A stretch of 64,000 nucleotides of DNA from Escherichia coli (GCF_030384885.1 NZ_CP128613.1), one strand, 5' to 3'; counted from the stretch's first letter, positions 22,601-25,600 are shown. Numbers are program-made.

Positions 22601-25600
22601 GTGACACTGACTTTTATAAAGTGCATGATAAGTTTGTATACTGTATAAATTTTCAAAAAAAGAGCACGGGTGATATTTTTTTTATAAACACAGGTGTTCA
22701 TCCTATATTCGAAGGTTTTTGCAATGAACTACCAACAAAAGAAATAGATTGCTACATTCGTAATCGTGTGTGTGATGGACTAAGTATATCTTTGCTGAAT
22801 TCTTTTGAAGGTGATGAATTTGTTATCAATGAGATAAAGGATAAAGCGTTTTGTTTTTTTGAATACTTTGATTCATTGAATAAAATATTCGATAGTATTC
22901 GTGTTGTCGATATTGAAGAGAGAAATATTTGCGATGAGCTAAGTAATGTAAGTAGCGTAAGATTAGCTTTGATGTGTATGAACTACCAATATGAGAAAAA
23001 AAATTTGGGACTTGCTTCAGATTTTGCGAACTATGGTCTTGCTATATCTAGAGGCCCGGTACCGAAAAAAGCATTTAAGGATATGATAAAAAAAATAGAG
23101 TGATATCTAATCCGCTGTAATGCCAATTGTCTGTGTACAGAGAAGGTTAACGGCCTGGATGAGACAATCGTCTACACATGGGACGCTGCAGGCCGCCTGG
23201 CAGAAATCATCGCCCCGGAAGGGAAAACGCAGTACGCGTATGACAAATCCGGCAGGCTGACGGGTATCTTCAGCCCGGACGGCATATCACAGCGCACCGG
23301 CTACGACGAACGCGGGCGGGTGAATGTCGCCACGCAGGGCAGACGGGCCATTGAATACCACTACCCAGGGAAAGATCACGTAACGCTGCTTTTTTGTACT
23401 AAACAATTCGAATTTTATGTTTAAAAATTGAGATATTCCTCATTACCTGAAGCTGTTTTTTATTGCTTATACATGATCAAATACTCCTTACATAATTAAG
23501 GAGAACAAAATGGAACTTAAAAAATTGATGGAACATATTTCTATTATCCCCGATTACAGACAAGCCTGGAAAGTGGAACATAAATTATCGGACATTCTAC
23601 TGTTGACTATTTGCGCCGTTATTTCGGGTGCAGAAGTTTGGGAAGATATAGAGGATTTTGGGGAAACACATCCCGATTTTTTGAAGCAATATGGTGATTT
23701 TGAAAATGGTATTCCTGTTCACGATACCATTGCCAGAGTTGTATCCTGTATCAGTCCTGCAAAATTTCACGAGTGCTTTATTAACTGGATGCGTGACTGC
23801 CATTCTTCAGATGATAAAGACGTCATCGCAATTGATGGAAAAACACTCCGGCATTCTTATGACAAGAGTCGCCGCAAGGGAGCGATTCATGTCATTAGTG
23901 CGTTCTCAACAATGCACAGTCTGGTCATCGGACAGATCAGGACGGATGAGAAATCCAATGAAATTACAGCTATCCCAGAACTTCTTAACATGCTGGATAT
24001 TAAAGGAAAAATCATCACAACTGATGCGATGGGTTGCCAGAAAGATATTGCAGAGAAGATACAAAAACAGGGAGGTGATTATTTATTCGCTGTAAAAGGA
24101 AACCAGGGGCAGCTAAATAAAGCCTTTGAGGAAAAATTTCCGCTGAAAGAATTAAATAATCCAGAGCATGACAGTTACGCAATGAGTGAAAAGAGTCACG
24201 GCAGAGAAGAAATCCGTCTTCATATTGTTTGCGATGTCCCTGATGAACTTATTGATTTCACGTTTGAATGGAAAGGTCTGAAGAAATTATGCGTGGCAGT
24301 CTCTTTTCGGTCAATAATAGCAGAACAAAAGAAAGAGCCAGAAATGACGGTCAGATATTATATCAGTTCTGCTGATTTAACCGCAGAGAAGTTCGCCACA
24401 GCAATCCGAAACCACTGGCACGTGGAGAATAAGCTGCACTGGCGTCTGGACGTGGTAATGAATGAAGACGACTGCAAAATAAGAAGAGGAAATGCAGCAG
24501 AATTATTTTCAGGGATACGGCACATCGCTATTAATATTTTGACGAATGATAAGGTATTCAAGGCAGGGTTAAGACGTAAGATGCGAAAAGCAGCCATGGA
24601 CAGAAACTATCTGGCGTCAGTCCTTGCTGGGAGCGGGCTTTAGTGAGTAGGCCACCGGAACCTCCCCGACAGCCTCTCGCAGAACCGTACGTGAAACTCT
24701 CGCTTCATACGGCTCCCGTCAGGCAAACGCGCTTCCTGGTCCTGCTTTCCAGTGGGCAAACAACTCCGGCTTCTCTTTTGACAGCCTTTCCATTAGCTGA
24801 CACGCCTTCGTCTTTCTATACCGCAGGGTTTTATATTTCTTTCTCGCCCACGCAATCAGCGTCAGATTAATATATCTGCATACTTTCTTCATCGCTGATT
24901 TGTGGTATCTCGCGTAATAATTCAGCCACCCCGATATTATCGGATTCAGCCACTTCGCAATATCTTCGAGACTCATCTCCACCCTGCGTCTGATCCACAG
25001 TTTCCTGAGTTTTCCAATCATGCCTTTCTGCGCACGGTTACTCGCCGCCGGGCTGAAACTCGTAAAGAGGTTCCCCCGCCGGTGGTTACGTGCTCTTCGC
25101 GCTCTGAACGTATACCCCAGAAAATCAAACTGCACTGTTTCATGGTTCGCCTGTCGTTCGCTGTCTTTGCAGTAAACTATTTTCGTTTTCTCCGGATGTA
25201 ATTCCAGTCCACATTCCTGAAAACGTTTTGCCAGCTTATTCAGTAATTCCTCTGCCTGTTGTTTACTGCCACAATGAATTAATCCATCATCTGCATAACG
25301 GCACCAGGGAATTTCCGGATAATGTAACGTCAGCCATTTATCAAACACATAGTGCAGAAATAAATTCGCCAGTACCGGGCTGATGACTCCACCCTGTGGC
25401 GTACCTTTATTTCTTTCCTTCAGTGTTCCATCCGGCATCTGCACCGGCGCTGTCAGCCAGCGGCGAATAGACAGTCTTACCCATTTATCCGCACAATGTT
25501 TATCTACTGCCCTGAGTAATAAATCGTGGGGGATATTATCGAATAACCCTTTAATATCAAACTCAAGACACCAGTCGTATTGCCAGCAACGTTTTCTGGT

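What the first reader, a model, noticed from the sequence alone, without database searches (positions are those of the whole stretch)
23104..23408. Second Rhs core remnant fused in-frame directly after the immunity-gene stop
From the base after the immunity stop codon the same frame is open for ~100 codons of YD-repeat sequence (YTWDAAGRL, YAYDKSGRLTG, TGYDERGRV). It has no start codon and no DPxGL or C-terminal domain, and it ends where the H-rpt element begins. This looks like the footprint of serial C-terminal displacement in an Rhs locus, with the distal copy truncated by the H-rpt insertion.
Basis: seen in the sequence. Interest (0 to 1): 0.3.

Follow-up and report, generated by a model that had tools for sequence, protein, structure and literature searches.

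The report
Leftover Rhs toxin-gene core stub
This is a dead 255-base leftover of an Rhs toxin gene's repeat region, stranded between an immunity gene and an insertion sequence in an E. coli locus where such leftovers were already described, so it is ordinary.

Summary
Window 23112-23365 (possibly from 23104) is a genuine Rhs core fragment. It scores RHS_repeat E=2.7e-13 and is 88-91% identical in DNA to nt 2856-3110 (aa 953-1037 of 1601) of full-length rhs genes at this same cusS-nfrB locus. It starts at most 8 nt after the DUF4304 immunity stop, in the same frame. It has no usable start, DPxGL motif or tip. It stops exactly at the CAGGG terminus of an ISAs1-family H-rpt at 23366, so the last 18 codons of the open frame are IS sequence.

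Comparative data support the displacement footprint. The same immunity-stop/core junction occurs in three diverged lineages. In A15-type strains the stub is joined to the last 127 nt of another toxin tip plus its SUKH-3 immunity gene, which is an internally deleted orphan.

"Truncated by H-rpt insertion" is only partly right. The missing core half is not on the far side of the IS, there is no target duplication, and the IS/core junction differs between strains.

The stub is a decaying mosaic pseudogene. Jackson et al. 2009 described tipless core fragments at this locus, and RefSeq annotates this one as an incomplete pseudogene. Interest is low.

The parts
21297..22534 (+). First rhs remnant, an orphan. 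It holds the 3' part of a clade-IV core from about core nt 3598 (aa ~1200), the DPLGL motif at about 22028-22042, and the C-terminal toxin tip. The longest ATG ORF is 21416-22534.
   Evidence: 100% identical to L001 8735-9973 and 95.7% identical to the main core of L001. Translations. RHS_repeat Pfam hit. The tip has no Pfam hit.
21296..21297 (.). Joint of a deletion of about 8.9 kb relative to strain 2013C-4282. The deletion removed vgrG, the DcrB-related gene, the main rhs, its immunity gene and the 5' ~1 kb of the orphan core.
   Evidence: Window 18400-21300 matches L010 34-2934 at 99.9%. Window 21296-23600 matches L001 8735-11039 at 100%.
22546..23103 (+). DUF4304 immunity gene (185 aa) belonging to the orphan tip.
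   Evidence: Pfam DUF4304 at 37.5 bits. RefSeq annotates the identical gene as a DUF4304 domain-containing protein.
23104..23365 (+). The finding: a tipless rhs core stub corresponding to core nt 2856-3110 (aa 953-1037). It is a pseudogene and a mosaic. Segment 23112-23187 is decayed (71-76% to any core). Segment 23188-23328 is 140/141 identical to the orphan core of 2013C-4282. Segment 23329-23365 is 86-92% identical to cores.
   Evidence: RefSeq pseudogene 'incomplete; missing N-terminus and C-terminus' at the equivalent of window 23113-23397.
23366..26543 (+). H-rpt copy 1, an ISAs1-family IS. Left terminus CAGGGAAAGATCA. Transposase ORF 23510-24643. Right inverted repeat ends at 26543. Interrupted by a group II intron.
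   Evidence: Inverted repeats I3 and I5. DDE_Tnp_1_assoc plus DDE_Tnp_1. Every K-12 H-rpt left flank ends in CAG.
24644..26528 (-). Group II intron with a reverse transcriptase/maturase ORF (24719-26236). It is inserted antisense, just before the right inverted repeat of H-rpt copy 1.
   Evidence: Rfam RF00029 at 24642-24717 and RF01999 at 26342-26459. RVT_1 plus GIIM. Boundaries come from comparing the two H-rpt right ends.
26544..27310 (+). H-rpt copy 2, lacking its first 524 bp. Its right terminus adjoins the sequence upstream of nfrB.
   Evidence: Direct repeat D1 and inverted repeat I3.. The right junction is conserved in all compared strains.

Best explanation
The segment is a non-functional relic. 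It is the 5' stub of a displaced clade-IV rhs core that travels directly behind the toxin-tip/DUF4304 immunity cassette in the cusS-nfrB Rhs array.

How it arises: new tip-immunity cassettes enter an rhs gene by homologous recombination in the conserved core. This pushes the previous core end, tip and immunity gene downstream. The downstream copy begins wherever the original junction was made, here core nt about 2856, at most 8 nt after the immunity stop.

What happened in this lineage: everything beyond core nt about 3110 was lost, and the stub now abuts the intact left terminus of an ISAs1-family H-rpt. The loss was not a simple insertion. It was either a deletion or recombination anchored at the IS end, or the cassette recombined into a terminal core stub that was already truncated.

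Since then the stub has decayed at its 5' end. Its middle was homogenised by gene conversion with the neighbouring orphan core. That partner was later removed in this strain by a deletion of about 8.9 kb.

Shown here: identity, mapping, junctions, mosaic structure and distribution. Inferred: the order of events and the mechanism of truncation.
For: - **Core identity and mapping.** RHS_repeat E=2.7e-13. blastp E=2e-48 to aa 953-1045 of a 1601-aa Rhs whose DPLGL is at aa 1444. 255 bp at 88-91% to cores.
- **Same locus and kind as published.** Jackson et al. [quoted passage not shown]
- **Shared left junction.** It occurs in three lineages, with shared derived bases at 23117, 23119, 23128 and 23142.
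- **Once part of a complete module.** In A15/PapRG the stub is fused to the last 127 nt of the LH50-c main-rhs tip plus SUKH-3. That SUKH-3 region is shared by 279 genomes.
- **Pseudogene decay.** The A15 copy has an internal stop. The 7/2 copy is 26 bp shorter. Private substitutions fall 7/3/9 by codon position, against 4/4/18 among long cores.
- **Gene conversion.** 140 of 141 nt are identical to the orphan core of 2013C-4282.
- **Truncation at the IS end.**
- **No far-side half and no target duplication.**
Against: - No genome with an untruncated DUF4304-core-tip arrangement was found. The count was 0 of 5426 complete E. coli genomes with a chimeric query, and all three metagenome contigs carrying the junction are also truncated. 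The complete ancestral module is therefore inferred, not seen, for the window lineage.
- The order of events (IS truncation before or after cassette arrival) is unresolved.
- H-rpt transposition has not been observed experimentally, according to the E. coli W genome paper. That weakens any transposase-mediated deletion scenario.
Confidence: 0.85

Rival explanations
1. Order-of-events variant. A terminal core stub already cut by the H-rpt, as in strain LH50-c (immunity A, then core nt ~2601-3092, then H-rpt), existed first. The tip/DUF4304 cassette, carried on a circle or transferred fragment with core sequence on both sides, then integrated into it by homologous recombination. On this reading the right part of the stub is older than its left junction, and the stub plus the upstream orphan core are the direct repeats that bracket the cassette.
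For: 2013C-4282 equals an LH50-c-like array plus the segment [core 3' end - tip - DUF4304 - core nt 2856 onward]. Both strains share the immunity-A/core junction, apart from a 78-bp indel. The window stub and the LH50-c stub share a private T at 23187. Jackson's circle model predicts exactly this structure. Metagenome contig L013 shows the same stub behind a full-length core fused to this tip, so recombination among these repeats does occur.
Against: The IS junctions differ: core nt ~3110 here against ~3092 in LH50-c. The left ends of the IS are also different H-rpt sequence subtypes. The reverse reaction, excision from a 2013C-4282-like array, explains the same pair of strains equally well. 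Only one shared private site supports the link.
Confidence: 0.3
2. A complete distal orphan (core, tip, immunity) was split by a simple H-rpt insertion, with nothing else lost.
For: The stub ends exactly at the intact IS terminus.
Against: The sequence right of the IS composite is the nfrB upstream region in every strain compared, not the rest of a core. There is no target-site duplication around either H-rpt copy or around the composite. The junction position varies among strains.
Confidence: 0.05
3. Functional read-through. The in-frame placement lets ribosomes read through the TGA and append a YD-repeat tail to the immunity protein, or the stub encodes a small protein of its own.
For: The stub is in the same frame as DUF4304, and the frame stays open for 106 codons.
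Against: The frame match has a 1-in-3 chance and is inherited from a single junction, so it is not recurrent. The A15 copy has an in-frame stop, and the 7/2 copy loses 26 bp. The substitution pattern is relaxed. The last 18 codons are IS inverted-repeat sequence. The only internal start is a GTG that leaves 34 codons. No convincing promoter or other signal was found.
Confidence: 0.02
4. The core piece belongs to the H-rpt element, that is, flanking DNA mobilised with it.
For: Core fragments abut the H-rpt left end in many strains at this locus: 831 genomes of one type, 155 of another, and 1 of this type.
Against: The IS inverted repeat starts at 23366. The five K-12 H-rpt left ends examined at rhsB, rhsE and rhsC have unrelated AT-rich left flanks. 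Different strains carry different core regions next to the IS (nt ~1604 against ~3100).
Confidence: 0.02

Closest known systems
Tipless 'dissociated' core-domain fragments at E. coli rhs position 4 (nfrB-cusS, clade IV), Jackson et al. 2009, BMC Genomics 10:584 (PMC2935791), Figure 5
   Same: Same chromosomal locus and same rhs clade. Same position at the distal end of a string of displaced tips. Core homology without any tip. Explained by C-terminal displacement through recombination in the core.
   Different: This allele has a specific junction (core nt ~3110 joined to the H-rpt terminus) found in only 1 of 5426 complete genomes and one metagenome contig. In this window the rest of the array (vgrG, main rhs) has been deleted.
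Orphan rhs-CT/rhsI modules (Poole et al. 2011, PMC3150448; Koskiniemi et al. 2014, PMC3967940)
   Same: A partial core lying downstream of an rhs gene's immunity gene. The homology to the main core is a substrate for recombination. Salmonella uses a 522-bp, 95% identical region.
   Different: A true orphan keeps the core end with the DPxGL motif, a toxin tip and an immunity gene. This stub has none of them and lies about 400 codons upstream of where DPxGL would be. It cannot yield a new toxin by recombination.
H-rpt / ISEc1 (ISAs1-family) elements of K-12 Rhs elements (yhhI, ydcC, ybfL, ybfD)
   Same: The element that cuts off the stub is 93-97% identical to the K-12 H-rpts. It has the same CAGGG termini and the same association with the distal end of Rhs elements.
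   Different: In K-12 the H-rpt left flanks are AT-rich non-core sequence. Here the flank is a core fragment, and the IS is a composite: one copy carries a group II intron and is joined to a second, 5'-truncated copy.

Membership tests
Rhs / YD-repeat core (Pfam PF05593 RHS_repeat) | YD-repeat units scoring above the Pfam gathering threshold | tested here: met
   50.4 bits against a cut-off of 22, E=2.7e-13, two stretches.
Clade IV rhs core of the nfrB-cusS locus (Jackson 2009 'position 4') | Located between cusS and nfrB, with high nucleotide identity to the vgrG-linked full-length rhs cores at that locus | tested here: met
   Flanking genes identified. 88-91% identity over 255 bp to main cores in four strains. 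Clade assignment by phylogeny was not repeated.
Orphan rhs-CT/immunity module | Core 3' end containing the PxxxxDPxGL motif | tested here: not met
   The stub maps to aa 953-1037, whereas DPLGL is at aa 1444 in the full-length protein.
Orphan rhs-CT/immunity module | Variable C-terminal toxin tip followed by a cognate immunity gene | tested here: not met
   The H-rpt terminus follows directly at 23366. No tip or immunity gene lies between the stub and nfrB.
Tipless dissociated core fragment (Jackson 2009, Fig. 5) | Core-domain homology downstream of the rhs tips, with no associated tip | tested here: met
ISAs1-family insertion sequence (H-rpt), the truncating element | Terminal inverted repeats beginning with CAGGG, and a DDE transposase | tested here: met
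   Inverted repeat I3: CAGGGAAAGATCACG... paired with ...CGTAATCTTTCCCTG. DDE_Tnp_1_assoc plus DDE_Tnp_1. The CAGGG family terminus is from my own knowledge of the ISfinder family table.
ISAs1-family insertion sequence (H-rpt), the truncating element | Target-site duplication of 8-10 bp flanking a simple insertion (family property, from my own knowledge) | tested here: not met
   The flanks ...ATACCACTACC, TGTCATTAGT... and CCCTGCTCAC... share no repeat. This argues for a rearranged rather than a simple insertion.

The most novel reading that the evidence does not exclude
Tipless core stubs at the distal, IS-bounded end of the position-4 array are more than debris. They may serve as the right-hand homology arm that lets tip-immunity cassettes integrate and excise as circles at the array's far end without disturbing the expressed main gene. 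The pair LH50-c and 2013C-4282 would be a natural before/after example. The H-rpt, never shown to transpose, may have repeatedly made deletions anchored at its own end, producing junctions at core nt ~3110, ~3092 and ~3084.
Probability: 0.15. Interest if true: 0.4.

Novelty: already known. Interest (0 to 1): 0.1.

Why it matters
It matters little on its own. It is one more documented footprint of Rhs toxin-tip displacement, at a locus where the phenomenon was first worked out.

Its practical value is for annotation. The 106-codon open frame should not be called as a gene, and the whole Rhs locus in this window is a relic: no vgrG, no full-length rhs, and only an orphan tip with its immunity gene.

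The comparative series assembled here gives a small, clean set of natural intermediates for testing the recombination and circle model of Rhs cassette exchange. The series is LH50-c, 2013C-4282, metagenome contig SKET01006222, A15, 7/2 and this window.

Tried and rejected
- **Search for an untruncated ancestor in complete genomes.** I used a chimeric query: DUF4304 end, then the stub, then 330 nt of continuing core. 0 of 5426 complete E. coli genomes cover at least 80% of it.
- **Same search in metagenomes.** An exact degenerate pattern across the immunity-stop/core junction gave three contigs. All are truncated at an H-rpt: two of the 7/2 type and one of the window type.
- **K-12 H-rpt flanks** at rhsB, rhsE and rhsC, to test whether the core piece belongs to the IS. 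None has a core flank, so this is rejected.
- **Target-site duplications** around either H-rpt copy or the composite. None found.
- **Promoter and terminator scan** of 22400-23700. Nothing beyond background that bears on the stub.
- **Other copies of the stub in the window.** None.
- **Pfam on the orphan tip alone.** No hit even at E<=1, so the toxin activity was not assigned.
- **Separating orthology of the two H-rpt copies by identity.** All copies are 95-98% alike, so this was uninformative.
- **Separating the genome counts for the nt ~3092 and ~3084 junctions.** The two 120-bp queries each returned 155 genomes and may cross-match. That overlap was not checked.

Full report
**Setting**

The window is E. 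coli DNA. cusCFBA and cusRS lie to the left (cusS ends at 20619), and nfrB (27558) and nfrA lie to the right. This interval is 'position 4' of Jackson et al. 2009 (PMC2935791). It is the only clade-IV rhs locus of E. coli and the one they used to show serial C-terminal displacement. The E. coli W genome paper lists the same b0570-b0569 site and notes that this Rhs type is missing from K-12 and B.

**Observation**

Translating 23104-23421 gives YLIRCNANCLCTEKVNGLDETIVYTWDAAGRLAEIIAPEGKTQYAYDKSGRLTGIFSPDGISQRTGYDERGRVNVATQGRRAIEYHYPGKDHVTLLFCTKQFEFYV. That is 106 open codons in the frame of the DUF4304 gene at 22546-23103.

It is real Rhs core:
- Pfam RHS_repeat scores 50.4 bits against a cut-off of 22.
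- blastp against a 1601-aa Rhs from strain 2013C-4282 gives E=2e-48.
- blastn gives 255 bp (23112-23365) at 88-91% to several cores.
- It is a 59% GC island between flanks of about 30% GC.

Homology stops at 23365. From 23366 the sequence is the left terminus of an ISAs1-family H-rpt, CAGGGAAAGATCA. This terminus pairs with ...TCTTTCCCTG at 27310 and at 26543. It is preceded by CAG at all five K-12 H-rpt left ends examined.

There is no useful start codon. The only in-frame candidate is a GTG at 23320.

**Where it maps**

The stub corresponds to rhs nt 2856-3110, aa 953-1037. That is about 400 residues before DPLGL at aa 1444.

The upstream rhs (21297-22534) is also only a remnant. It starts at core nt about 3598 and keeps DPLGL, a tip and the DUF4304 immunity gene.

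**Comparison with other strains**

Window 21296-23600 is 100% identical to strain 2013C-4282. That strain's locus reads: vgrG, DcrB-related gene, rhs (1601 aa), immunity A, orphan rhs (core from nt 2584), DUF4304, this stub, ISAs1, group II intron, truncated ISAs1, nfrB. RefSeq annotates the stub there as 'incomplete; missing N-terminus and C-terminus'.

Window 18400-21300 is 99.9% identical to the cusRS side of the same strain. The window therefore differs by a deletion of about 8.9 kb, joined at 21296/21297. That deletion removed vgrG, the main rhs, immunity A and the start of the orphan core.

The junction between the DUF4304 stop and the core is the same in two other diverged lineages:
- **Strain 7/2.** The module identity to the window is about 85%. 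DUF4304 is followed by the stub and then an ISAs1 joined 26 bp earlier.
- **A15 and PapRG-06-3.** The tip and DUF4304 sit on the full-length rhs, and the stub is only 183 bp.

The three stubs share derived bases absent from all long cores, so the junction arose once.

In A15 the stub is followed by the last 127 nt of a different tip (...PMCKNCQ...) and a SUKH-3 immunity gene. In strain LH50-c that tip and SUKH-3 are attached to the main rhs. The A15 structure is thus an internally deleted orphan. This is direct evidence that the core behind DUF4304 once led into a complete displaced module. The region spanning that tip end and SUKH-3 occurs in 279 genomes.

**Truncation**

A simple IS insertion does not fit:
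- The right side of the IS composite is the nfrB upstream sequence in every strain.
- There are no target duplications.
- The IS region is composite: H-rpt copy 1 (23366-26543) carries an antisense group II intron (24644-26528) and abuts a copy lacking its first 524 bp (26544-27310).
- The core/IS junction varies, with the IS terminus always intact.

| Junction type | Core position | Example | Complete genomes (of 5426) |
|---|---|---|---|
| Window type | nt ~3110 | this window, 2013C-4282 | 1 |
| LH50-c type | nt ~3092 | LH50-c | 155 from each of the two junction queries; overlap not checked |
| 7/2 type | nt ~3084 | 7/2 | counted with LH50-c type above |
| Other core fragment | nt ~1604 | WCHEC020031 | 831 |
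| Non-core flank | none | A15 | not counted |

Two histories remain open. In one, deletions anchored at the IS end removed the rest of the orphan. In the other, the tip/DUF4304 cassette recombined into a terminal stub that was already cut. LH50-c has immunity A, then core nt ~2601-3092, then H-rpt. 2013C-4282 equals that array plus the cassette, and both share the immunity-A/core junction. I could not decide between these histories.

No untruncated form was found in 5426 complete genomes or in three metagenome contigs. One of those contigs, SKET01006222, shows the window-type stub behind a full-length core fused to this tip. That is a main/orphan recombinant of the kind demonstrated in Salmonella.

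**State of the stub**

It is a pseudogene and a mosaic:
- 23112-23187 is only 71-76% identical to any core.
- 23188-23328 is 140/141 identical to the orphan core of 2013C-4282, which looks like a gene-conversion tract.
- 23329-23365 is 86-92% identical to cores.

Private substitutions fall 7/3/9 across codon positions, against 4/4/18 for variation among long cores. The A15 copy has an in-frame stop. In this window the conversion partner has been deleted, and no other copy exists in the 64 kb.

The in-frame position after the TGA has a 1-in-3 chance expectation, is inherited from one event, and has no supporting signal.

**Verdict**

The displacement reading is supported. The 'truncated by insertion' step is too simple. 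The feature is of a kind already published for this very locus and is already flagged as a pseudogene in RefSeq. Interest is low.

Noticed in passing
window 21296-21297: Relative to the near-identical strain 2013C-4282, a deletion of about 8.9 kb removed vgrG, the DcrB-related gene, the full-length rhs, its immunity gene and the first ~1 kb of the orphan core. The joint lies 64 nt upstream of where vgrG would start. The locus in this window therefore has no deliverable Rhs toxin, only an orphan tip plus its immunity gene.
   Followed up: yes
window 24644-26528 (minus strand): A group II intron (Rfam RF00029 and RF01999; RT/maturase ORF 24719-26236) is inserted antisense in H-rpt copy 1, between GGGCTTT and CGTAATC. 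This changes the last transposase codon to TAG. Because it is antisense it cannot be spliced from the transposase mRNA. 2013C-4282 has the identical arrangement.
   Followed up: partly
window 23366-27310: The IS is a composite. The right inverted repeat of H-rpt copy 1 (ending at 26543) is joined directly to an H-rpt copy lacking its first 524 bp (26544-27310). There are no target duplications. This fits insertion of one copy into another followed by a deletion or recombination.
   Followed up: partly
window 23340-23370; L005 9290-9310; L009 11550-11572; L002 9040-9055: The left terminus of the H-rpt (CAGGG) is joined to rhs core sequence at several different points in different strains: core nt ~3110, ~3092, ~3084, and ~1604 of another fragment. 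The right junction to nfrB is constant. Three junctions fall within 26 bp of each other, each with an intact IS end. The cause is unexplained: either end-anchored deletions or microhomology (CAG) deletions.
   Followed up: partly
L003 10818-11571 (strain A15) and L009 8001-8569 (strain LH50-c): In A15-type strains the stub is fused out of frame to the last 42 codons of a tip with an HPT...PMCKNC pattern (deaminase-like by eye only), followed by SUKH-3. The annotated A15 SUKH-3 ORF is 125 aa against 145 aa in LH50-c, probably because a later start codon was called.
   Followed up: partly
window 22097-22534: The orphan toxin tip after DPLGL has no Pfam match even at E<=1. It contains an RRIDVVD...IESKVGR stretch that resembles a PD-(D/E)xK nuclease motif by eye. 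It is paired with a DUF4304 immunity protein.
   Followed up: no
L009 8569-8590; window 23101-23112: Orphan cores start very close to the stop codon of the preceding immunity gene at more than one junction (about 5-10 nt after SUKH-3 in LH50-c, at most 8 nt after DUF4304 here). They start at nearby core positions (nt ~2881 and ~2856). I do not know whether this tightness reflects selection to keep the immunity genes intact.
   Followed up: no
L005 7268-7353 (strain 7/2): A solo 86-bp H-rpt left end lies directly after a PAAR-domain gene fragment inside the array. This is another IS scar in the same locus.
   Followed up: no
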